This document shows positions 8,378 to 37,709 of a stretch of DNA of 48,729 nt, piece by piece (the first letter of the stretch is position 1; each line of letters starts with the position of its first letter). Both the position numbers and the translations under genes were made by a program. The notes beneath the pieces were generated by a model. That model was given only the letters and a program-made list of their open reading frames with translations. It did no database searches and was not told where the DNA came from. Source of the DNA: Gonapodya sp. JEL0774. Its lineage: Eukaryota. The DNA lies in the NCBI GenBank assembly GCA_027604505.1, contig JADIIX010000072.1, positions 62,001 to 110,729 of the forward strand, given 5' to 3'.

Positions 8378-8792
8378 AGTCTCCATGGATTGTCGACGAA
8401 TTTTTTATATGTTTATACCGCTTTTGGCGCCTCTTAGATTGTAAAAGAGCATGAGAAAGTGAGCATATAATGACATATGTAGTATCCAGTTTGACGTCAT
8501 GTGCTCCTCTGTTTGCGCACGACAAACTTTCGCCTCCCGCGCACTTGCGGAAAATCTTGGAGAGAATCGGTAATAGTTAGATGGCACTCCAGCTTTGTGA
8601 AAGAGACTAAAATATTGACTGGGCACCCATCTCGGGATAAGTTCTCCACTCGACCTGGTCCCTCTGTTTATACTGGCAGCAGGGTGGGTGGGGCCTTGCT
8701 CCCAGGCAAGGGTCACAAAGCCTCCGGTGTGAGGATGCAAGCGCCCCCCCAATCTATGAAATGGCTTCATTCCTTCCAAACTTACGCTAATT

Positions 8793-11501
8793 ATGTCAAC
8801 TCCACAAGATTTCGAATGGGTCGGACCACAGGAGCTGGATACAAAAATCTCCACGGGCAGGAAGGCGTCCCGTTCCAGATCACGTTCCAAGAAGACACAT
8901 CTCAGTGACTCGGACGCCGTCAACCAAGAGGAATACGGGTTAGGACACTCAAACGATTTCTACGAAGAGAAACGATCCAGGAGGAGGCGATCTCGGTCTC
9001 GTAGGGAAGCTGACGATATGGTGGAATCTGCTATGGGTGATGAGAAATTCGATGCGGTGGAAGAGTCTCAGCCTTCAAGTGGGAAGAAGAGGAGTTCTTC
9101 CAAGAAACACCGCCGAAAGCGTTCAACAAGAAGCTCAAAGGCTGCTTTTGACGTGCCACAATACGAGGAGGAAGTTGTTCCCCAATCCCCGATATATGGA
9201 TACGTGTCGCACGATTTGCCTCAATCACCTCAATGGGACGAACCAGTCCAAGATTCTCAGGAGCCGGGTATATTCAGTCCAGATGATACGAAGATTTTGG
9301 AACATGATTTTGAGCAGTATGAAGCCCCGGTCAAACCACGAAGGCGAGGACGACTGCTACTTGGTGTGTGCAAGCCAAAACTTCGCTCGTGTTAAAATCC
9401 TCTCATCATCCTTCCACTACTCTGGATGCTCTTTAATGAAGTGTTTGTAACCCTCTTTTTCCTGCTGGCGGGTGGGGGAGGGTTCGCACTCTACTTTTTC
9501 GTGTTTCGCAAAGGGTCTCAGACATCGTCAGCTGCTGGTAAGTTCGTGCCGTCTCTGCTTTGCACCCTTAAAGTTCATCTAAATGTACTCGGGATTATAG
9601 TGCTTCCACAGAATGGAACTGTGGACGTGGGGGGTACGCCAACCGCAACAACAGCGGGTAGGTTGCATTGGTGCTGGGTCGCGGCTTTCGAGGTTTCAAC
9701 TTGGGTACCTTCTTTCAGCAGGTACTCCAACAGCTTCGCCCATTGCATATGTTAATTCTTCCTCCATGCATCCGGCACCAGGAAAATTGTGGTTTGGTGT
9801 TGCTATCGACGAAGACTTTCGTGATGTTGCGAAGACTTGGAATCTCAGCGGTAAAGGCGTCATGCCAAAGCTGGTCAATATCTTTTGGACCATGACAAAT
9901 GATATCAAAGACCCGCGTTACCTTGGTTAGTTGCTCGCTTGTTGAAAATGTACTGGTTTGCACTCAGATCAGTTTCCGTTTTTCATCGCCTTTCTCAAGC
10001 GGGGAACATGACACATTATGCCACAAATAGTAGCACACTACCCCCAGGAAGTGTGATTGAAATCACTCTAATGCCAATGGCTGGCCTCGAGGTTGCTACA
10101 GATGAGCTGATGCTGCTCTTTGCGAATGCATTCAAAGTAGTGAACGAGAAATATGCTGTCATTCTCCGCTTTGGGCACGAGTGAGTTCATTCGCGCTTTC
10201 AACCGATTTTTTTATGGACGGTGTCTTTCACTCATGTTTCTCCCTTCACCCTCAAAGAATGAATGGAAATTGGTATCCATGGTGCCGACAACCAACCCTG
10301 TACAAGTCTACATTCCGCCGCTTTGCTGCAACAATCCGTTCAGTCACCCCTTACACAGCCATGTTCTGGGCGCCGACTATCTCCGACACGTATCCTTTCT
10401 CTGCTTACTCGATTCCAGCTCCAAACACAACCGATTTTGCAGCGTTGGACACAAACAACGTGAGGATACTCTCTGCGTGCACAAGTCTCTCAACCTCTGA
10501 TAGTCGGTTTTTGATTAGAACTCAATCATCGATCATGGAGATGACCCTTGTGCGTTTTTGATGTTTGAGACGAGATTTCTCAATAAGGATGTGAATTGAC
10601 CTTGCTTGATACATGCAGACGCTCCTTACTATCCGGGAGACGATGTTGTTGGTGAGACGGAAATATGATACTCAGAAGACCACTTTGGATAACTTACCCA
10701 ATTATTGCCGGCTCATCTCTAGACTGGGTCGGTGGAACTGTTTACTACTACGGACCCCTATGGCCGTGTATGTTTCTTCGCATGCAGGATTCGGTGCATT
10801 CTCACTTATCAACCCCCTTTTCGATTATCTGTGGCTTCCATAGATGTCAACAACTACTTACCCAATCGCACTTACCTCGAATGGACAATAACCGGAAAGA
10901 GTGTTGTCGATGGGTCCACCGTCAGCCCGTCTTTCTACGACGTCTATGCTGCTGGAAAGAACAAATCCATGATGTACGCCGAGATTGGGTTGTATCACTG
11001 GCCGAACGGGACAGGTGAGGGATCGGTGATTTCGTATGCGGCCTGGGGGGAGACGACATTTGATGCAAAATGATCCCAACAGGCGTGGATGCAATGACGC
11101 AAAAGCAAGCTTGGTGGCGACAATTAGCTGACCGTACCACAAGAGCCAAGTTCCCGCTCATCAGAGCGTTTGCATGGTTTGAAGTTGCTGTGAGTGTTCT
11201 TGTCGTACATCCCCTCCTATTTCGAGCTCCAGCGCTTCTTCGATCGTCTCAAACTCATCACTCATGCCTCCCTCTCTCTGCGTAGAAAATTGAGCCAGGA
11301 TGGGACAACCAGGTGAGATAACGACTCGCGATCTGCTCACTTCTCATTCTTACATTGGTGTCTTCCGTGCAGTTCATCGATTTCAAAATCGGCTCCAACT
11401 CTTCAACCATGCAAGCGTTCTTGAACGATATCTCGCCTTCTGGAAGCGCGCAGTCAAACATTGATCCCGACTCACTGGAATGGGCCATTGATTACCGTTG
11501 A
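8793..11501 (+). CDS. Glycoside hydrolase family 26 (beta-mannanase-like), type II membrane-anchored
   Basis: Many short exons. A disordered N-terminus is followed by a TM segment (RRRGRLLLVFVTLFFLLAGGGGFALYFFVFRK after splicing). GH26 motifs: LRFGHE|MNGNWYPW (acid/base Glu), AMFWAP, PYYPGDDVV|DWVG, MMYAEIG (nucleophile Glu), KQAWWRQL, FPLIRAFAWFE. Stop TGA at 11499-11501. Confidence 0.85.
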
Positions 11502-12233: not shown

Positions 12234-13887
12234 TCACGAGATCAGTCCCAGGTTCGCATTGCGCCCTAACGGTCCGAGTTCCACAGCAGCAACGCAGCCT
12301 CTGCCCGCGCTCAGGTGATCAGCTGCTTCCGCGCATGCGCCAACCACATATACTGAGCTTCCATCCAGTGATGTAGAAAAAGAGTTGGCGTAGGCCATGT
12401 GATTTGGGGATAGCCGAAGGAGGGCAATGAGGGTGAGAGAGGAAGTGAGGTGAGTGGAGACTGCGGAAGTGGAGGAAGTAACGGGGGTAGAGACCGAGGA
12501 AGTGGAGGAAGTGAGGGAGGTTAAGTCCGAAGAATTGAACCGTTTAGAGGCAGAGGAAATGACGGCTGAAGATGTGGTGCGAGTTGGGGTAGGGGAGGAG
12601 GATTGTAGCGATGATGTGGACAGGGTTGAAGTGTTCGGTGCAAAAGAGACAATTCGGGTGGTGTTTCCAGGGTGAAACACCAGAACGTTTTCGTTGTTGA
12701 CAAGTGAGACAAGAATGTGGTCGGTCACTCGATTTGTGCGAAGGCTGGTGGAACGAGACATGGTGAGCCAACCCCCGAGAGTTCAACGACGAAAGACTGC
12801 CAACTTCACTCCAGGTGCAGTGCACCTGCGGTGTACCTCGTGCAACTACTCACGCGGCGAAATCAAAAGGGGAAGAAAGGAACGAGCCATAGAAGTCACT
12901 TCGTAGATCCGCGACAAGAGTTTTAGCACCAAGGATGCCCTGTCCAAGAATCGGAAATCTCCAAATGTATTTTGCAGTGTTGGTAGATTCAGCGATGTAG
13001 AGGATTGTACCGTCCGAGTTGAGGGAGAGGCCCGATACACGACCCAACGACATGAGTAGAGTAGCGTTAGGCACGGACGTGACGTTGATGACATCCTGAG
13101 GCATCAGCGAAAGCGAGAATGGGGAAATATAGAAAATACTGCTTGAAATTTCGAGACCGGTGCCTGTGGACGGAGCACCAGCACCCCCTGACGCAAAGAA
13201 ACCACCGTATCGGTCCAGCGATGTAAGCTCGTCAGGTGTGTTGGTTTTGTTCGTGGGAAGAGTCACACTGAACAGACGCACGAAATTTTGCGTACTGTTG
13301 GCTGCGTTTGCGCCGTACGGATCCAACAGATCGATCCGGGCGTTGTTGAAATCTGCCAAAGCCAGAAGCGGTCGCTGCTGCGGTTGTTTTGTAAAATCAG
13401 CATAAAGAGGAGCTGACAGCCAGCGAGATGCAATATATTGCGCGGTGTCTGGACCTCTGAACGCAACGTATTGCCGGAAAGATGAGGAATTGCTGAAAGT
13501 GAGTGGTCCAGTTGGTGTTATCGCAACCACGGTGTTGTCAGAAACACAGGCCTTAGTTACATCGGTAAGCGGTATATCGATGAAGATTGAGTGAGAATAT
13601 TGTGCGAAAAGGTCATTCGGGATGGTTGGGGTTCGTTAGATGCCTTCTAATCGACAAAGCCACATACAACTCACAAAAGCGGTGTTATCAGGGCCGACAG
13701 AAACACCATCAAGAAAAACGTCTAGCTGAGATTGATTCCAGCTTACGATTGGACGAGTACGCAGTGTTGAGAGACGGGCGAGATCAGGTGCTGCGAGCAA
13801 AGACTGGGACACTTGTGCATCACTCGGAAGCACTAGCGCAACCAAGCATAGTCCGCAAAATAGTACGAGAGTTATCGAGCCAGTCAT
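12234..13887 (-). CDS. Secreted protein, probable beta-propeller (SMP-30/gluconolactonase-like), with a Ser/Thr-rich insert
   Basis: Signal-peptide-like start MTGSITLVLFCGLCLVALVLPSDAQ. Three exons joined by GTGAGT...AG introns keep the frame. Blade-like motifs: LDGVSVGPDNTAF, LALADFNNARIDLLD, PDELTSLD, SGLSLNSDGTILYIAES, IWRFPI, STSLDGSSVYVVG. Many N-x-S/T sequons. Confidence 0.65.
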
Positions 13888-14473
13888 ACAGAAGTGTGCG
13901 GGTTGTGTGTGGTCAGTCGAACTCATTCCCCACAAAATGGGTTGAAGTGAACTGCTCACAACCTGTCCAGTCCGGCCCCGCGGGAAACTGGACCAACTGA
14001 AACTTTATAGAATTAATAAATTAATTAACTTAATAAAATTAGATGCTCAGCATTATTGGTGATGTCTGAATTACAAAATCTCAAAATCCAATGCCACAAT
14101 ATCTTTCCCGTCTTTCCAATCAATCTCGACGGGTTCCATCCTTTTCCGACCATTTTCACATTCTCTGTTTCATCCACTCACTTCCACTACCCGTACTCCC
14201 GCTCCCTTAGTTGTTCATTGTGTTGATTTGTGATGAACATTGGGCCTTCACCAACCCACCGCAAATATATGCGGCACGCCCGCAATTGATTCTCAAGGAG
14301 CACACGTCAAGATCGACCAGCTGGGACAGGAGAACAATAACGTCGAACTTGCTGCTACAATCCCCTGGTTTTGGACTTCCTGGCGCGCGTTGAACAGCGT
14401 TTGCAAAAGGGATCTTGAGTATTGCAAGGACTTGTTAAATCACCGTGGTGGATCAGCAAGTCTGAGCGCGTCA

Positions 14474-28375: not shown

Positions 28376-31300
28376 CTAGGAAATGTATCCCTTGTGCTTC
28401 AGCCATCCATGCACGAACCCACTGACACCAAAATACTCTTCTGCAGCATACTTCGTGAACACAGATTGAAACCGCTCGGGCTTACAGAGATGATATAAAA
28501 GGGGTTCGGCGACGGGGAGGATGTCTGCTTCGGAGTAACCGGAGAGGCGGACGTGTTTCGGGGTCTTAACAATGCAATTCCGAAGGATCGATCAATCTAA
28601 CGCACAACATAAGAAGCCAGTGTCTCACTGTCAGTGTACTCACCCAGTCTCCCATCAAGCTCGCCTCCCCCATTATCTTTTTACCCAACCACACCCCTGC
28701 GGCTGCTACCAAACTCGGCCTCCAGCTCAAGAACGCCTCACCCGCCAATGCCGCTTCGGAGAAGTACTTGCCCAGTGTTCTCGTTCGCACATCGTAATCG
28801 TCGGCGCGGTTGATCCGCCTCAAGAATTGTAGAGGTCCTGGAGCGCCCACATTAAATCCGAGCATCGACAGCAAGTATCGTTCAGCCCGAAGGATCTCCT
28901 CTCTGTCGTAGCCATTTTCCACAATGTACACCAAATCATTCACGCTCGGAACCACCACTTCCTCATATTTTGCTGCCACCAATAGTGCCGCCACGCCAAC
29001 AAGCTGAAACTTGGTCTGGCTCACGGCTTTGCACGAGCAGAACCGATCGGCGAGGTTCACCGTCAGATACAAGGTTTCCGGGTGCAGGTGAAATTTTGCA
29101 TGGACTTGTACAAGCCAATCGATAAGAATGGTGCGCATGGACCAGGTCAGTTCAGGTTGAATAGTCATATAATTTGCGTCAGGCATTGTTTGGAGCTGTT
29201 TTTTTTTCAATGAAGTGGTAAAAAATCAGTTTCCCTCCCAGAAGATTTTGCTCTGAGCCTGCCCAGATCGCCACCCACTCACCTCTACATCTCTCAAATA
29301 GGTATCAATTACCTCCGCGTATTCGCTCACCATGCACGGATCCGCATCATACTCGTCCACCTCCAGCACAAGCCCGCTCAACCTCTTCCCCTGCTCCTTC
29401 TCTCGAACTTTGACTCCTCTTCGTGCCCCCCTCTCCATGGCCAGCCCATCGCCATCATAGTCAACCTCCATTCCCGAACGATCCCCTGGCGACGCTACCA
29501 GTGTCGTGCCCGCAACTGTGCATTGACTCGCGTCCGGCGTGCGAGGGATTGTGGGCACTGGGGCAGCCTGTCGGTACGGTACAAAAGAACCACTCGCAGC
29601 TCGAGGAGTCGGAGCGCCGGGACGGGGTGGGGCGGAACGGTGTGGAGAGGCGGAGATTCTTGGTGTGGGATCGTTGGTGGACGTGATCCGAGGACGTGCG
29701 TCCGCTCGCCGTTTCTCGACCGAAGCAGGAGGCACCGGAGCGTGTGGGCGCGCTGGTGGTGGTGACGGGTGCACAGATAATTGCGCCGGCCGTGCCCGAG
29801 TCTTCAACGCCAGCGTGGTCGAAGTGGAGGGTTGTGTCTTCATGTCTCCCACAATCCTCTCAGATCGCCCTGCCAGCGTACTAGAGCTCGCAGTCGTATA
29901 CGAAGATGCGGAAGACGGGGGGCGGTTCTCCTTGTTTGACCTGGTAGCTGCAGACACGAACGTGGATGTGGTGGAAGCGGAAGATGCTGTTCGTGAGGGG
30001 ACTACGTAGGGAGCTGAGGAAGTTAAGGGCGGGCGGGAGATATGAGTGTGTGTGCGAGAGAGCAATGAAGATGCTGTGGAATCTGCGGAAGAGGAGGAGA
30101 GGCGAGATGCGGTGTTGCGGGAGGCGATCGTCGCTTGCGGTCCCATGGCCGTGGTGCGATGAGCTGTTGGACGTGTGGGAGCAGCAGATGATGACGAAAC
30201 TATTGATTTGGGTCGAGATACGGCAGACGTGGCGTTGGACGCCGGATGTCGCCTCGACGTGGTTGATGGAGCAATAGGGGGGCGCGACGTTACCGAGAGT
30301 GATTTAGAGACTGACGTGTGGACAGATGCTGATGATTTTGACTGTGATTTTACAGTCACTACTGTGTCCCCACTTGTCCCCATGCCCGTGCTCGATAAGT
30401 ACACCTGATACTGATACTGGTAGGATCCAGTGGATGTCGCAACAGTGCTCGTGGTTGGAGCAGCTACCCGTGAACCGGCAGACGTTGGAGCAGCGATTGT
30501 CACAGAAGATCGGTAGTGCTGTGGCTCGTAAGTGTTCGCATTGTTTATGGTCGAGGAAGATGATAGGGCCGGCCGGGTTGCTGCAAAATGAGCGGAGGAG
30601 GATACTGCGCGCGTTCCAGCAAAGGTCGTGGATTTAGAGCTCAGCCCAGGGGCGCCAGAGATGGAATAGGACCCGTAGGTACTAGGCGCGTACGTCGTGA
30701 TTCTAGGTGCAGGTACGGGTGGTTGTGCGGGAGGAGGGGAGGCGGATTCCATCTCAACGTCTTCGTCGTGTTGAGATGGGTGGTTGCGGTTGCTGTGGTT
30801 GTTGTCGGTGTGGTGAATGTGGTGAGAGTGGAGATCGTGCGAACGAGGTCGGAGGTCGGGGGCGAAATGTTGGGACGAGGGGACAGACGTGTATTCCTTA
30901 TGGGGAGGGATCGCCTGAGGGTGTTTCGAAGCCGCTGTTGCCGCCGCTGCAGCGAGCGTCGCACGAGTTCCACCGTATTGATAAGCAAATCGAGCAATGT
31001 ACGAAGAGGTGGGGGGCGCCGCAGAGGATGTGGAGGAAGGGTTGGGCCGGGCTGTGAGGGGGACCCGGGGTCTCGTTGCGGCTTGCTGCGCTCTCAACGT
31101 GGATTTGAGAGTAGGTCGAGATGTGGGCTGTTTCGTGAAGGACGGGGTTCAAGGTGAGCGGTGTGGTGTTTCAAATGAGAGTCGGTGGAGCCGGATAGAA
31201 CGGCCATCACACACCCAAACAGCGCCATCATCCTCCCTCGATTCCGAACAAGACAGATGTACACTTAGCTCATGCACGTACTCACCTGTTTCGGCAGCTC

Positions 31301-31582
31301 ATTTCTCGTTGTCTTCTCGCCCAGTTTGGTAGCGGCGTGTCGTTTTTTTGGAGGGCAATTTTCGTCTCCCGCGCCGCCAACATCCGGTCGCTTCAGCGCC
31401 TGGCGAAGTGGCTGCGAGGACGTATAGTGGACTGGGACGGAAGAGAGCGCATTTTGCGTTGCGATATGCTGCGATCCCCCCTGTGTGGTGGGAATTGACA
31501 GGAGGAATGGTCGGTGGACCACAGCAGCACCGCAAGACGACCATCCGCTACTCACCCGCTCTCCAAATGTCCGGCCATACAT
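28376..31582 (-). CDS. B-type (G2/M) cyclin with long disordered N-terminus
   Basis: Exons 31582-31556, 31480-31286, 31127-29283, 29195-28644 and ~28564-28376. Motifs: DPCMVSEYAEVIDTYL, MRTILIDWLVQVHAKFHLHPETLYLTVNLADRF, QLVGVAALLVAAKYEE, AERYLLSMLGF, PLQFLRR, RTLGKYF. D-box RVPLTARPN and a KEN motif. Confidence 0.95.
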
Positions 31583-32135
31583 AATTTCTTCTTCTGTTCT
31601 ATGTGACTTTTGTCGCTGCGTTCCGAGAACCGGCTGCCCAATCGTTCTGCCGGTGCCGAGTGGCCACCGGTTCCGGTGGCCTTGGTGAACAGCTGTAGGG
31701 CGGGCACGCTCGATGGCTGATGGCACCTGCAGATTCGCTAGATGCGAGTACGAATATGGCTGTCCGCGTTTCTGCGGGGGTGCTAGTGGGGGGTTGGTGG
31801 TAATGATGTGGGTGAAACTGGGCCGGCGGAACCCGTTGTTGTGCAGGGGCCGGCAACTGAGCCCGCTGCGTGGAATCATTCACAACCAAAGATCCACTGC
31901 AACAACACTCAGAATCCCAGGCAGCTAGATTGACTATCTAGCTGGAAGCTCGCACATCGGCAATTAACGTCAGGGATACGCCATCACGGTAGATAATCTG
32001 TCTGACTGAATGTATTCCGACGAACCCATAAAACTGTAAAATGCAGCCACCGGACTACGCTGGGTTGCCACAGCCTCTCTTGAGAATTGTCTTTGATTTG
32101 GACGGGTTACCAGTTTGGGGACCAACAGATATACC

Positions 32136-33171
32136 ATGACTGCGAAGACCACAGCGAGAGTGAGTCACGCCAGTCCCAACCAGGCGTAAACGAATTCCTT
32201 CTCACGAACTTTTGGCATAACACTCGAATCTGCTTCAAACCACCACTGATCATGTCCCTCTGCATCCCCACACTTCCATTCCCCGTATCCCGACTCCTTT
32301 TACCACCAGTTTTGGTGAATGTCGCTTTCAGGAAAGTCGTCACTCACGCGAAGCCTTGGCACGATATCATGGGTATTTTCGTACGTGAGTAGGCGTGTGA
32401 CTATTGGTGTGAGGACTGGAAGAGGAGGGAAGGACGGGGAAAAGGAATGATATCTTGGTGGGGTTCACTGGAAGTGCCTGTTTTTTCACATCTCTCCAAC
32501 TTGCCGCGTGGCAACCATGCCGACGTCACAACTCATGACAATATTGTGCAACACCAGATGACCGCACCGAAGAAGCGAAAAGGGTCAGTCTCTTGGCCCT
32601 TCGCATTTCTCGTCGCCACTTTGCACCTTACATGATTCAAAATAATGCCAACGAACCCCCTTTAGGTTCAGTCCCTTCTTACAGCTCACGGTGACAACAT
32701 CAAGACCCGCATAGGGCTGAAATGCCGAGAGTGCGTACCTCATGTTATCTCCTGCTTCAATCGTTCACATACCAAACCAGTTGCCCTGACTGTGGTTTCA
32801 CAGCGGCCATAAATGTGGTCTCATTCTTCTTGAACTCGAAGGTGACAGCGCGGTGAGTACCACGATTCCAGCTACCTCGCCGTGTTCTCAACCGCCAGCC
32901 ATGCTTTCCGATGTTATCCATGACTTTTGGGGTCCGCAAATGCAAAATTGAAACTAGGGTCGGCATAAACTGCAACAGGAGCTGGAACAGCTGTCGGGTG
33001 TGGAGATCAAAAAGGTAAGTGTTGTCTGACTCTTATGATTCGATCATACGGCCCCTCCCATTCTGAACCCCAACCGCCAATTGCGCTTCCGCGATGCTGC
33101 GCCATGCCGTCGTCCCAATCTTCCCACCGTAATAAAACAAGATGGAATTCTTCACTGAACCAAAGTTCTGA
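32136..33171 (+). CDS. Small (~93 aa) ACT/NikR-C-fold protein resembling bacterial TM1266-like (putative [FeFe]-hydrogenase system regulator) proteins; seven micro-exons
   Basis: Exons 32136-32159, 32354-32384, 32558-32583, 32666-32730, 32804-32852, 32958-33014 and 33142-33171, all with GT-AG introns and compatible phases. Product: MTAKTTAR|PWHDIMGIFV|HDRTEEAKR|VQSLLTAHGDNIKTRIGLKCR|DGHKCGLILLELEGDSA|GRHKLQQELEQLSGVEIKK|MEFFTEPKF*. Exon 1 and the first acceptor are the least certain parts. Confidence 0.8.
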
Positions 33172-33795: not shown

Positions 33796-36700
33796 ATGAC
33801 CTCCCGCATCAAATCACGCCGCCGACTGCCCATACGAGAAGATGAAGGAGAAGATTTTGGGGAGGTGGTAGTTGCGGGAACTACAACGCAATCGGACGCC
33901 GAGGAGGAGGACGAGGATATTGCGGATGAGTTTTTGAGCGAGGAGGAGGAAGAAGGTGGGGAGGAAGGTGAGTTGTTTCTGAGAGAAGTCATGTCGTGAG
34001 GGTAGGAGTGGTGTTAGGAATGTGAATCAGTTGGGAATGCTGCGGAGCTTGGGAGTTGGTTTGGAGTGGCGATTGTGGTATTCAGGTTGTTCCATCATGC
34101 TAATGAGTATTTTGATTTTCTTAACGAACTAACTTTGACAATCATTTCCTCTGCAGATGCCGATGCTCTCGGCAGACGGGGTCAGCCGAACACCGATGCG
34201 ACAGCCTCTGAGACAGCAGAGACGCAGCCGACCACAACATCAGGCGATGGGGCACAGGTCCCCGACCTAAAAGTGGCCGTAGCAACCCAACAACGTGACG
34301 AAAATGTCACGCCTAACGTAGATGCTGTGTCGACTCCTCCACCAACAACCTCGGATATAGACCATCAAGTCCCGGACGAGACTGTAGAGGACAGAGCCGC
34401 TGCGGGAGAAGAGAATAAAGCAGGAGAAGAGAACACGGCACCTATATCTTCTGTGGTGGAGTCCTTTGACGTTGGGGCTTTGGACCAGAACGATGATGAT
34501 GTGCCCACACGACGGAAATCTACTGCGGCGGAGAGGAAAGAGCGCAAAAGACAAACTCAGGCGACATGGGGAGAGAACGGGAGGAGGAGACGGGAGGGGG
34601 TTACGTCGACACTTGGGGGAGCAGAAGAATCCAAGGCGTGGGGCGATAGTGCGGCCACGGAATCTGTCACGGACGGGCAGATTGGAGACGAAGCCTCGTC
34701 GAAGCTCACACAATCTGTAGATCCGGGTCCTGATTTCGCACGCCGTGCTCCAGTGGTTAAACCGCGGTGGGGATTCCATGACGACCGAGGTTACGAGCCA
34801 CCCCGCCGTTGGCGTGGCCGTGGAACGAGAGGCCCTGCAGCGTTCTCGGATCGCGGTGATAATGCAGTGGAGGAGGAGGATGAGGCAGCTAGGTCGGAAG
34901 CACCGCCCGACCGGTTCACGTCTCGCGTTGGCAGTGCGGGTATCTTCCAGCGGGATGATGAGGCGCTCCGGGAGCCGGCGGGGACTGGAGTGAGAGGTGG
35001 ACAGACTGATGGAGCCGGTCAGATGAGGGGCGGTAGAGGTAGTCGGGGCTTTGCCCCTTGGGACCGATCTGGCGGTGATAGGGGCAGGGGTCGGGGGGCT
35101 GGTAGCTTTGGCGGGGACCGCTGGGCCAGTGGCAACGGTGGAGCGTTCGATCCATTCCGGTGAGTACACCTGTTTCGTTTGGTAATGCGGAGGACTTGGG
35201 CATCACTTTGAATCTCGTGGGTACTCTTTTCTCACTCTCACGGCCAACCATTGGATATGCGGCCCTCTAAATAATTCAGGCCCAAACGTTACGACCTATG
35301 GGAGTCCCCCGTTGGACCCGATGGCGGTCCGGATGGCGGAGGCCGCAATCGTTGGGGCCACGACAAGTTTGAAGAACTACAAGATGAGCCTGAAGATTCG
35401 CGATTCACACCGGATGGGGACAGATTCCAGTGGGGTAGAGGCCGGGGTCGGGGTAGGGGCCGGGGAGGTTTCAGGGGCGGAGGATTCCACGAGAGCGGGA
35501 GGGGAGCTTCGAGCACTGGGAATGGAGCAAGGTCGCATCGGCCTCCTTCCAGCTTGTCGGGAGCAAAGGATGGAGGAGGAAGTGTCACGGACAATGGAGG
35601 ACCAGTTTCCAGTCAATCTTACGCAAGGACAGTCACGGGTGGACGGAAGGAAAGGTCAAGGGGTCAGGCATCCACTCCTCCGTCCGCTACCTTCGTGCCG
35701 CCACCGGAGCCGATGCCAGGGGTGCCGCCTGGTGATTCTAACACCACGTATGATGTAATTGTAACCGGCTTGGGGCAGGACTTGACGAATGAGAGCGGAG
35801 CGGCCGTTACTGTTGATGCCGATGCTGCTTCATCGACAGGTTGGAATCGTCTCCCGGAAGCCGATGAAGCGTCTGGTGCGAACGGTTTGCCTGGTCAGTT
35901 GGAAGGACCTGGGACAGCTCCAGCAGACAGCAAACCTGGCAAGACAGACGTACAAATGGATTCTTCAACTAACATAGATCTGTCTTCGGCTGAAGGACCT
36001 CATGAAAGGGCTCGTAGCAGGGGACGAGGTCGAGGCTTTGTTGAAGGTTGGCGTGGTACATTCAGGGGAGGAAGGGGAGCATTCGAGGGAGTGCGTGGTG
36101 GTTACGAAAGAGGACGCGGAAGCTACGAGAGGGGTACGTATGATAGCAGCTACAGAGGCGGTCGTGCTAGATATGAAGGAGGACGGGGGGGGTTCGAAAG
36201 CGGACGTGGGCGTTTCGAGGGAGATCGTGGGGGACGAGGCGGCCACGACAGAGGTCGTGGAGGTTTTCGTGGAGGTTTTGATAGTGGTGGCAGAGGATTC
36301 AGAAGTGCTGCACGAGGTGGTTCAAGTCGGGAGGGGAATACCAACCCTTACCAACAGACCAATGGCCACGGCGCTCAGGACTGGACGCAGTTTAAACCAA
36401 CAAAGGAAGCAGCATCGGGAAATAATTCGGAAATGGATGCGACCGCGACGCCATCTGAACGCAAGGATCCAAAGTCAGGATCTGCGGTAATTGTGCAGTC
36501 TGATCTCAATTCGTCTGCAATTGGCAGCAAGGAAGAGGAGCCTGTTGTGGAGTTCAGTGACTTTGTACGTGGGGAAATGACGCCTAAAGTACCTCAACAG
36601 GATGAGACATCGAGCAAATCAGGCTGGGGAGATTTCTCCACCGCGCACGTGGATGATGGTCCGAAATGGGACGTGAGTACAGATACGGAACCTGCAGTCC

Positions 36701-37548
36701 CGTTGGAAGAACCACAGCGGAGTGTCGAGAAGAAGCGATACAGCAACAAAGCAGGTGCGGAGTGGCAAAGCTACGGGCAAGGATATGGGCAGGCGCAAAG
36801 AATTATGCCGACACTACCTACGCTTGGTGTGACGCGGGGATCTCCAGCGTTGAGGAATGGTGTGTGATTGTTAAAGTTTCTTTTGAAAGGTCAAGGCAAC
36901 AGAGTTCTGATGTCAGCCAAATCTGCAGTTGATGCCCCCGAGTTCACGCCGACAAGTTCTCCCGACAATGTCTTTCCGTTTGAACCTGTGGTAGCTTCTG
37001 AGGGCAACTGGTCCGGTTCTATTTCCAACTCGTCAACTCGTCGCCGGGATCAATCGTGGGCAAATCCGGCTGCTTATGTTCCACCAATTGCGTCCTCAGA
37101 GATCTCCCCTGCGTTTCCCCTTGGAGGTCAGATGGTCGTCCAACCAATGATGACCGCAACAGGTCAAATGGTGCTGATGACAGAAAATGGACTGATGATT
37201 CCAGCAGCCATGCCGATTGGGGCCACCGCCGGGGCCGCACAAGTACCCGGCATGTATGGGATGCAAGGAATGGGACAAATGCAGAATCTTCCGGGATTGC
37301 AGGATTCCCAATCTCAGCAATTCTACCAAACAACATATTACTCTACCCCGAACCCCTGGGGAGCCAACCAATATTTTGATCCCGGTTCTTCAAATGGGAC
37401 CACATATTACCCCCCAACTGCATCCACAGGGTTTTTCCTGACACCACAAAACTCAACACCAAATCCTAGCGAGGTCGTTGCTCTTCCTAAACCGAATCCA
37501 GTCAAACTTTCTGCGCCGGTGAAAGCAGATGCAGATGCTCCACAGTGA
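33796..37548 (+). CDS. CASC3: CASC3/Barentsz (Btz, exon-junction-complex) domain protein with RGG repeats and a PAM2-like motif
   Basis: Basic then acidic N-terminus. The two Btz/SELOR half-motifs are PVVKPRWGFHDDRG (~34750-34791) and NRWGHDKFEE (~35347-35376). Extensive RGG/RG tracts, SAVDAPEFTP (36922-36951) and a Q/M/Y-rich C-terminus. Confidence 0.7.
36010..36320 (+). repeat. Degenerate ~21-nt (7-aa) coding repeat GRGx(F/Y)E within the RGG box
   Basis: Translation GGRGAFEGVRGGYERGRGSYERG...GGRARYEGGRGGFESGRGRFEGDRGG. Confidence 0.7.
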
Positions 37549-37709
37549 TGACACCAGTGTTCGGACTGGGAGTTTAGATAAGGTGTAGGCTTTAAGAGCA
37601 ATCAAAACCAATTAACTTGAATGCTACTCGGTCCATACAAGAAATGACGTGCACTTAACTTGATTCTGAACTCAGCCTCTCGTTCCTCGATTCGCAAGCT
37701 CTTTGCTTA

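What the first reader, a model, noticed from the sequence alone, without database searches (positions are those of the whole stretch)
32136..33171. Hidden seven-micro-exon gene encoding a bacterial-type TM1266-like (hydrogenase-maturation-associated) ACT-fold protein in a fungus
Seen: an apparently empty 2.2-kb spacer holds exons of 24, 31, 26, 65, 49, 57 and 30 nt with GT-AG introns whose phases all match. They give a stop-free 93-aa protein, which is unlikely by chance. Recognised from memory, not from a search: the pattern IMGIxVxDRxxxAxxVQxLLTxxGxxIKTRxGL...GLILLELxGD...LxxELxxLxGVExKKMxF matches small stand-alone ACT/NikR-C-like proteins of anaerobic bacteria. These are related to the TM1266 'iron-only hydrogenase system regulator' family found beside hydE/F/G genes. 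Inference: an old bacterial acquisition, fully intronised, that may mark an unrecognised anaerobic H2/Fe-S or metal-sensing module in a free-living zoosporic fungus. I know of no described eukaryotic member, but I cannot verify that here.
Basis: partly seen in the sequence, partly recalled or inferred. Interest (0 to 1): 0.9.

Follow-up and report, generated by a model that had tools for sequence, protein, structure and literature searches.

The report
Hydrogenase-linked bacterial protein in aquatic fungi
A seven-exon fungal gene, with a 79%-identical counterpart in Gonapodya prolifera, encodes a small protein of a family found mainly in anaerobic, hydrogenase-carrying bacteria; it likely works as a ligand-binding helper of low-oxygen hydrogen metabolism, but whether this fungus has a hydrogenase is untested.

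Summary
The gene is real. The seven exons join through GT-AG introns into a stop-free 93-aa protein. A blind spliced alignment recovers introns 2-5 (66 bits; background maximum 20). Gonapodya prolifera KXS18861.1 is 59/75 identical, gap-free across four junctions. Exon 1 rests on splice signals alone.

The closer family is CPF_0552 (NF052672), a sister of TM1266: own profiles give 83 versus 28 bits. The ortholog passes neither curated cut-off. Its predicted fold matches TM1266 (Z 12.1), then NikR's metal domain and ACT domains. There is no DNA-binding domain.

In bacteria the family tracks [FeFe]-hydrogenase: 21 of 80 loci lie beside hydE/F/G, and 16 of 16 carriers in a Bacteroidota sample have the enzyme versus 13 of 284 non-carriers. 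Most hydG genomes lack it, so it is accessory. The fungal pair lost a conserved Cys and His and gained a Cys-x3-(His/Tyr)-x-Cys loop.

Best reading: an old bacterial acquisition acting as a ligand-binding accessory of hypoxic H2 metabolism (about 45%). Hydrogenase genes, expression and partners in the fungus could not be tested.

The parts
32136..32159 (+). Exon 1 (start codon, 8 codons; short basic N-terminus, no homology support)
   Evidence: A at -3, GTGAGT donor, phase 0 fits the acceptor at 32353
32354..32384 (+). Exon 2 (strand beta-1)
   Evidence: (11.6 bits)
32558..32583 (+). Exon 3 (Asp-Arg loop, start of helix 1)
   Evidence: 10.1 bits; 8/9 identical in Gonapodya
32666..32730 (+). 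Exon 4 (helix 1, strand beta-2 with the invariant Arg-x-Gly; family Cys replaced by Asp, family His by Lys; new Cys47)
   Evidence: (NF052672 E 7.4e-5 on this exon alone)
32804..32852 (+). Exon 5 (short loop with His51 and the conserved Cys53, strand beta-3)
   Evidence: (23.0 bits)
32958..33014 (+). Exon 6 (helix 2, start of beta-4)
   Evidence: (18.9 bits)
33142..33171 (+). Exon 7 (end of beta-4, short tail, stop); modest support
   Evidence: 7.2 versus 1.4 bits; GTAAGT donor at 33015
32252..32353 (+). Possible alternative start inside intron 1: in-frame ATG adding 34 residues with no Asp or Glu; could be a targeting peptide or a by-product of a pyrimidine-rich intron
   Evidence: first 37 residues: 4 basic, 0 acidic, 6 Pro; 64% pyrimidine DNA
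32041..32139 (+). 32-codon upstream ORF whose stop overlaps the start codon; significance unknown

Best explanation
This is a real seven-exon gene of bacterial ancestry, shared with Gonapodya prolifera, whose product is predicted to fold like TM1266, the NikR metal-binding domain and ACT domains, and it likely works as a small oligomeric ligand-binding accessory of low-oxygen [FeFe]-hydrogenase metabolism rather than as a DNA-binding regulator. Shown: exon chain, ortholog, closest family, bacterial co-occurrence with hydrogenase. Predicted: fold. Inferred: it would pair through its beta-sheet (ACT and NikR-C domains do; bacteria carry tandem and fused copies); the conserved Asp-Arg loop and Arg-x-Gly strand would hold a small anionic ligand such as an amino acid at the subunit interface; the new Cys-x3-(His/Tyr)-x-Cys loop would add iron, sulfur or redox sensitivity in place of the lost His and Cys; ligand state would tune or supply H-cluster assembly under hypoxia. 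The exon-1 form has no clear targeting peptide and would be cytosolic; the ATG-32252 form could be organellar.
For: Gene. Family. Fold: models at pLDDT 92.8 (bacterial member) and 89.4 (Gonapodya); best matches TM1266 2nzc Z 13.0 and 12.1, NikR Z 10.7 and 9.8, then ACT domains. Hydrogenase link: 21 of 80 loci have hydE/F/G within 5 kb; 39 of 50 genomes whose gene stands apart have hydG elsewhere; Bacteroidota sample 16 of 16 carriers versus 13 of 284 others with an [FeFe] large subunit; Bacillota 14 of 15 versus 46 of 105 with hydG; Planctomycetota 2 of 2 versus 17 of 118. Oligomer: 10 of 80 loci carry a second copy, 11 of 150 representatives have two domains. The Thermotoga neapolitana TM1266 ortholog rises with hydE and hydG under CO2 (PMC7039931, table passage). 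Chytrid fungi appear in eukaryotic HydE/F/G/PFO clades (PMC7449678, passage).
Against: No hydrogenase or maturase gene has been shown in this fungus or in Gonapodya; none appeared among the 40 window ORFs scanned with Pfam. 59 of 80 bacterial loci have no maturase nearby. 8 of 16 Bacteroidota carriers had no hydG match. Most hydG genomes lack the family (17 of 19 and 46 of 60 in two samples), so it is not required. Co-occurrence may reflect shared anaerobic lifestyle and kinship; I ran no control with another anaerobe marker. The fungal pair lost the family Cys (90-99% conserved) and His (98-100%), which allows a changed function. The ligand site is inferred from fold alone.
Confidence: 0.45

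Rival explanations
1. The gene came from an anaerobic bacterium but was repurposed as a general ACT-type ligand or metal/redox sensor acting on a fungal enzyme unrelated to hydrogenase.
For: Long branch to the fungal pair (1.22 changes per site); loss of the family His and first Cys; ACT regulatory subunits score close behind TM1266 (Z 9.4-9.8); three quarters of bacterial loci show no maturase nearby.
Against: The surface residues Arg21, Gln29, Lys40, Thr41, Arg42, Gly44 and Glu59 of the family are kept; about 15 of 150 other representatives also lack the His, so its loss need not mean a new role.
Confidence: 0.33
2. It serves a different anaerobic process that merely co-occurs with hydrogenase, such as Fe-S supply or oxygen defence for radical-SAM and flavodiiron enzymes.
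For: 8 of 16 Bacteroidota carriers lacked a hydG match; flavodiiron and peroxiredoxin genes each recur beside the gene in 4 of 80 loci.
Against: HydG is by far the commonest neighbour (18 of 80); all 8 hydG-negative carriers have an [FeFe] large subunit.
Confidence: 0.13
3. It is a transcriptional regulator, as the TM1266 family name suggests.
For: Fold shared with NikR's C-terminal domain; the curated name.
Against: The protein is one domain of about 85 residues that matches only NikR residues 52-132, not its DNA-binding N-terminus; no recurrent DNA-binding neighbour among 690 ORFs from 80 loci beyond a sigma-factor-like ORF in 6 (label from my reading of the sequence); a bacterial operator system would be unlikely to survive transfer to a nucleus (inference).
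Confidence: 0.06
4. It is a contaminant, pseudogene or chance exon chain.
For: No RNA evidence was available; the product is not among the 120 hits listed, where it would have ranked about 12th.
Against: Six spliceosomal introns, fungal flanking genes, host-like GC3 0.54 versus 0.58-0.61, and a 79% identical ortholog in a second genome.
Confidence: 0.03

Closest known systems
CPF_0552 family (NCBIfam NF052672)
   Same: Best family for exon 4 alone, for the spliced product (82.7 bits on my profile; members 84.7-128.8) and for the Gonapodya ortholog (57.9 bits); up to 52% identity over about 80 residues; same length and single domain.
   Different: Eukaryotic, six introns; first Cys and His replaced; beta-2/beta-3 loop three residues shorter with a new Cys; ortholog below the 85-bit cut-off. 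No paper names the family.
[quoted passage not shown]
   Same: Best structural match (Z 12.1, rmsd 2.0, 74 aligned, 30% identity); shares the invariant Arg-x-Gly; short loop and no His or Cys at those places.
   Different: 27.8 bits on my profile against 94.6-128.6 for members; ortholog 30.5 against cut-off 60.8; lacks the family's Pro and the Gly pair of helix 2. 25 of 50 genomes carry both families.
NikR C-terminal metal-binding domain; ACT domains (IlvN, RelA, AHAS small subunit)
   Same: Same predicted beta-alpha-beta-beta-alpha-beta fold (Z 9.4-9.8).
   Different: No DNA-binding or catalytic domain attached; 11-21% identity; metal ligands not shown.
Gonapodya prolifera KXS18861.1 (UniRef100_A0A139AQ22), hypothetical protein
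   Same: Ortholog, 59/75 identical, same altered loop.
   Different: Its model starts at our Met14 and diverges at the exon 6 donor, likely an annotation that missed the terminal exons (inferred).
Eukaryotic HydE, HydF, HydG, PFO acquired from bacteria (PMC7449678, passages read)
   Same: Bacterial anaerobic-metabolism genes fixed in eukaryotes, chytrid fungi included.
   Different: The passages I saw mention no small accessory protein; whether this gene travelled with them is untested.

Membership tests
CPF_0552 (NF052672) | Score over the curated 85-bit cut-off | tested here: not met
   Tested on the Gonapodya ortholog: 57.9 bits on a model that lacks both ends. The spliced product was not scored on the curated model; on my profile it gives 82.7, just under the lowest member, 84.7.
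CPF_0552 (NF052672) | Closer to this family than to any other | tested here: met
CPF_0552 (NF052672) | Conserved Arg21, Gln29, Lys-Thr-Arg-x-Gly, Gly54, Glu59, Leu74 | tested here: met
   (Gln29 to Leu45 were fixed by the fetching pattern, not in the 242 proteins)
CPF_0552 (NF052672) | Conserved Cys, His, Cys triad | tested here: not met
   Only the last Cys is kept; first Cys is Asp, His is Lys
CPF_0552 (NF052672) | Nests inside the family in a tree | tested here: inconclusive
   Best trees place it inside, but grouping with TM1266 is not rejected (p-AU 0.35; 0.71 on a poorly searched tree)
TM1266 (TIGR03959) | Score over the curated 60.8-bit cut-off | tested here: not met
   Ortholog 30.5; spliced product 27.8 on my profile, members 94.6 or more
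TM1266 (TIGR03959) | TM1266-like fold | tested here: met
   Predicted model of the ortholog: Z 12.1 to 2nzc
TM1266 (TIGR03959) | Genome encodes [FeFe]-hydrogenase and HydE/F/G | not testable with these tools
   No genome held
NikR | N-terminal DNA-binding domain | tested here: not met
   93 residues, one domain; match covers only NikR 58-129
NikR | His/His/Cys/His nickel site | not tested
   No residue-level alignment to NikR was obtained (one search returned none)
ACT domain regulators | Binds an amino acid at a dimer interface | not testable with these tools
   Fold fits; binding needs an assay

The most novel reading that the evidence does not exclude
Free-living Monoblepharidomycetes kept a bacterial [FeFe]-hydrogenase accessory protein as part of an unrecognised hypoxic H2 pathway, and at least one other anaerobic eukaryote (unnamed protein P0278, with a presequence-like N-terminus) imports a member into its hydrogenosome-type organelle. 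The TM1266/CPF_0552 proteins would then be a fourth, protein-level component of H-cluster maturation, mislabelled as transcription regulators.
Probability: 0.25. Interest if true: 0.8.

Novelty: new variant of a known kind. Interest (0 to 1): 0.52.

Why it matters
TM1266-like proteins sit beside hydrogenase maturases in many bacteria and carry a 'regulator' label with no test that I could find. A copy kept in eukaryotes, with six introns and 79% identity between two fungi, argues for a protein-level role and offers a simple system to test it. It also flags Monoblepharidomycetes as candidates for hydrogen-producing fermentation, which bears on how gut-fungal anaerobic metabolism arose. It shows too that micro-exon genes of this size are missed or cut short by annotation.

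Tried and rejected
No genome was held. No sequencing run was listed; that is no evidence on expression. Exon-level searches of plasmids, PDB sequences and viral contigs, and the first protein search, found nothing. Two profile searches of the 90% collection listed only the top 120 hits, none above 53% identity to the product; the product would have fallen below the listing cut. A metagenome pattern for members with Lys in place of His gave one match, a chance hit in non-coding DNA. The HydG-plus-family-protein complex gave no verdict: it was not folded. The protein atlas did not complete. No earlier finding of the scan matched. Donor lineage: a quick tree put the product with Planctomycetota-like proteins, a careful tree near Bacillota and Hydrogenedentota; no donor can be named. 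Shewanella HydX was considered as a known member and dropped because it is 23.9 kDa (PMC4694547, passage); its sequence was not compared. Literature: 'CPF_0552' 0 papers, 'TIGR03959' 0, 'Gonapodya' with 'hydrogenase' 0, 'Monoblepharid' with 'hydrogenase' 4 surveys seen as listing only, 'TM1266' 15 papers, 13 listed, mostly other uses of the string by title, 'iron-only hydrogenase system regulator' 5 papers, 4 listed. A search on Gonapodya ecology gave nothing relevant. Supplements of PMC7449678 could not be read and may list Gonapodya maturases.

Full report
OBSERVATION. The exon chain is as described. Exons 32136-32159, 32354-32384, 32558-32583, 32666-32730, 32804-32852, 32958-33014 and 33142-33171 on the + strand join through six GT-AG introns (73-194 nt) into 282 nt, 93 residues and a stop. 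A splice-aware alignment to a profile built from 115 prokaryotic proteins, told nothing of the model, recovers introns 2-5 to the base. It scores 66.4 bits against a maximum of 20.1 in 40 other stretches of the window, and 33.9 with the 17 motif columns masked. Exons 2-7 contribute 11.6, 10.1, 37.5, 23.0, 18.9 and 7.2 bits; exon 1 contributes none. The blind alignment read through donor 6 instead of using exon 7, so exon 7 has modest support and exon 1 rests on signals alone. An in-frame ATG at 32252 would give a 34-residue acid-free extension, but the stretch is pyrimidine-rich intron with six prolines.

HOST. Flanking genes are eukaryotic: cyclin, SAC3/GANP, kinases, a glycosyltransferase 8 and a trichohyalin-plectin-homology protein (its identity as the flagellar protein CFAP45 is recalled). 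The five best PDB matches of the aspartate-semialdehyde dehydrogenase score 386-406 bits, ahead of the next at 332 (I recall these five entries as fungal). The nearest protein found to the product is Gonapodya prolifera KXS18861.1, 59/75 identical without gaps across four junctions. The host is therefore likely a relative of Gonapodya (Monoblepharidomycetes; class recalled). The ortholog rules out contamination and shows long retention. The window's dehydrogenase is in NCBI, yet the 93-residue product was not among the 120 hits listed where it would have ranked about 12th; the annotation probably missed it, with the caveat that the search uses at most 100 words.

FAMILY. Exon 4 alone hits NF052672 CPF_0552 at E 7.4e-5. 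9 of 12 such proteins tested pass the NF052672 cut-off and none passes TIGR03959. The product is up to 52% identical to family members over about 80 residues. It scores 82.7 bits on my CPF profile (115 members, 84.7-128.8) and 27.8 on my TM1266 profile (26 members, 94.6-128.6). The truncated Gonapodya model scores 57.9 and 30.5 on the curated models, under both cut-offs. Best trees put the fungal sequences inside the CPF radiation on a long branch, with no stable donor; grouping with TM1266 is not rejected (p-AU 0.35). So the product is a divergent CPF_0552-like protein, and TM1266 is its sister family.

ANATOMY. Models of a bacterial member (pLDDT 92.8) and of the Gonapodya protein (89.4) give a beta-alpha-beta-beta-alpha-beta domain. 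Best matches are TM1266 (Z 13.0 and 12.1), NikR's C-terminal domain (10.7 and 9.8) and ACT domains. The window's own product was not folded. It keeps Arg21, Gln29, Lys40, Thr41, Arg42, Gly44, Cys53, Gly54, Glu59 and Leu74. It replaces the first family Cys (90% of 115; 99% of 242) by Asp and the His (98%; 100%) by Lys, and has a loop three residues shorter with Cys47 and His51. Gonapodya shares all of this but has Tyr at 51. About 15 of 150 other representatives also lack the His, as does the second half of most two-domain fusions; TM1266 has neither residue.

BACTERIAL CONTEXT. Of 80 loci of 2 kb or more (58 of 9 kb or more), 21 have hydE, hydF or hydG within 5 kb, in layouts such as hydG-gene-hydF-hydE and hydG-gene-aspA-hydF. 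Of the other 59 I tested 50 genomes: 39 have hydG elsewhere and 25 also have true TM1266, which lay within 3 kb of hydG in 15 of those 25 (read from the two tables). In even samples, centre genome excluded: Bacteroidota, 16 of 16 carriers and 13 of 284 others have an [FeFe] large subunit, while 8 of 16 and 5 of 284 have hydG; Bacillota, 14 of 15 and 46 of 105 have hydG (counted by eye); Planctomycetota, 2 of 2 and 17 of 118. Fisher tests are small but ignore kinship, and the genomes are mostly incomplete assemblies. The family is thus nearly confined to hydrogenase genomes but missing from most of them: an accessory, not a core maturase. This fits heterologous maturation in E. coli with Shewanella hydGX-hydEF alone (PMC2991362, PMC13556243; passages).

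MECHANISM. From established knowledge, ACT and NikR-C domains oligomerise through their sheets and bind amino acids or metals at subunit interfaces. Tandem genes (10 of 80 loci) and fused pairs (11 of 150 representatives) fit that. With no DNA-binding domain and survival in a eukaryote, a protein-level role is more likely than transcriptional control. I commit to a ligand-binding accessory that tunes or supplies H-cluster assembly under low oxygen (0.45). The ligand, the partner and the compartment are inferred. Rivals: repurposed general sensor (0.33), another anaerobic process (0.13), transcription factor (0.06), artefact (0.03). The weakest step is that no hydrogenase has been shown in this fungus: no genome or RNA was available, and 40 window ORFs scanned held none.

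LITERATURE. I read find-passages only, no whole papers: PMC7039931 (TM1266 ortholog listed at 5.98 beside hydE 7.52 and hydG 6.39 under CO2), PMC7325909 (a figure legend naming hyd_TM1266), PMC7449678 (eukaryotic HydE/F/G sister to Anoxychlamydiales, chytrid fungi in those clades; supplements unavailable), PMC4694547, PMC2991362 and bioRxiv 10.64898/2026.10.15.759383 (HydX), PMC13556243, PMC13632651 and PMC4989108 (no mention of the family in the terms searched or passages shown). Searches for CPF_0552, TIGR03959, and Gonapodya with hydrogenase gave no paper. The library lacks most subscription journals.

VERDICT. A real, conserved, heavily intronised gene of bacterial origin; a divergent eukaryotic variant of an uncharacterised hydrogenase-associated family. 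An ortholog is already deposited as a hypothetical protein, and transfers of anaerobic genes into eukaryotes are known, which limits surprise. Its value is that it makes the role of TM1266-like proteins and hydrogen metabolism in free-living early fungi directly testable. Interest 0.52.

Noticed in passing
protein P0278: Unnamed 100-residue family member (87.5 bits, over the cut-off) with about 19 extra N-terminal residues that resemble hydrogenosomal or mitochondrial presequences (pattern recalled). Possibly a second, organelle-targeted eukaryotic member; keeps the Cys, His, Cys triad; grouping with the fungal pair neither shown nor rejected (p-AU 0.50).
   Followed up: partly
proteins P0244, P0245, P0246, P0251, P0254, P0263, P0265, P0276, P0279, P0311, P0370: Two-domain fusions of the family; the first half keeps the His, the second mostly has Asn or Ser. 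They mirror the tandem gene pairs after hydG in Bacteroidales (L014, L016, L057, L067, L069, L071).
   Followed up: partly
G173, G210, G290, G310, G318, G382, G446, G470: Eight Bacteroidota genomes with one to eight [FeFe] large-subunit matches and a family gene but no hydG match at E 1e-80: missed, divergent or truly absent HydG.
   Followed up: partly
L045:3468-7575: A hydG, family gene, hydF, hydE run on a contig labelled Bathyarchaeia; [FeFe] maturases in an archaeal bin may be real or mis-binned.
   Followed up: no
window 32041-32139 (+): 32-codon upstream ORF whose stop overlaps the gene's start codon.
   Followed up: no
KXS18861.1 (P0250): The Gonapodya model seems to lack the first exon and to read through the last intron.
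   Followed up: partly
window 28566-31330 (-) and 33830-37550 (+): Flanks: a divergent cyclin gene with a long low-complexity N-terminus, and a downstream gene rich in Arg-Gly-Gly repeats with no Pfam match.
   Followed up: no
window about 1400-2600: Repeats of about 22 codons, Pro/Glu-rich on the minus strand, broken by a run of N near 1900-2180.
   Followed up: no
window 8760-11100 (+) and 12234-14004 (-): Two multi-exon genes with no Pfam match in the pieces scanned; by eye a membrane-anchored glycoside hydrolase-like and a beta-propeller-like protein (recalled, untested).
   Followed up: no
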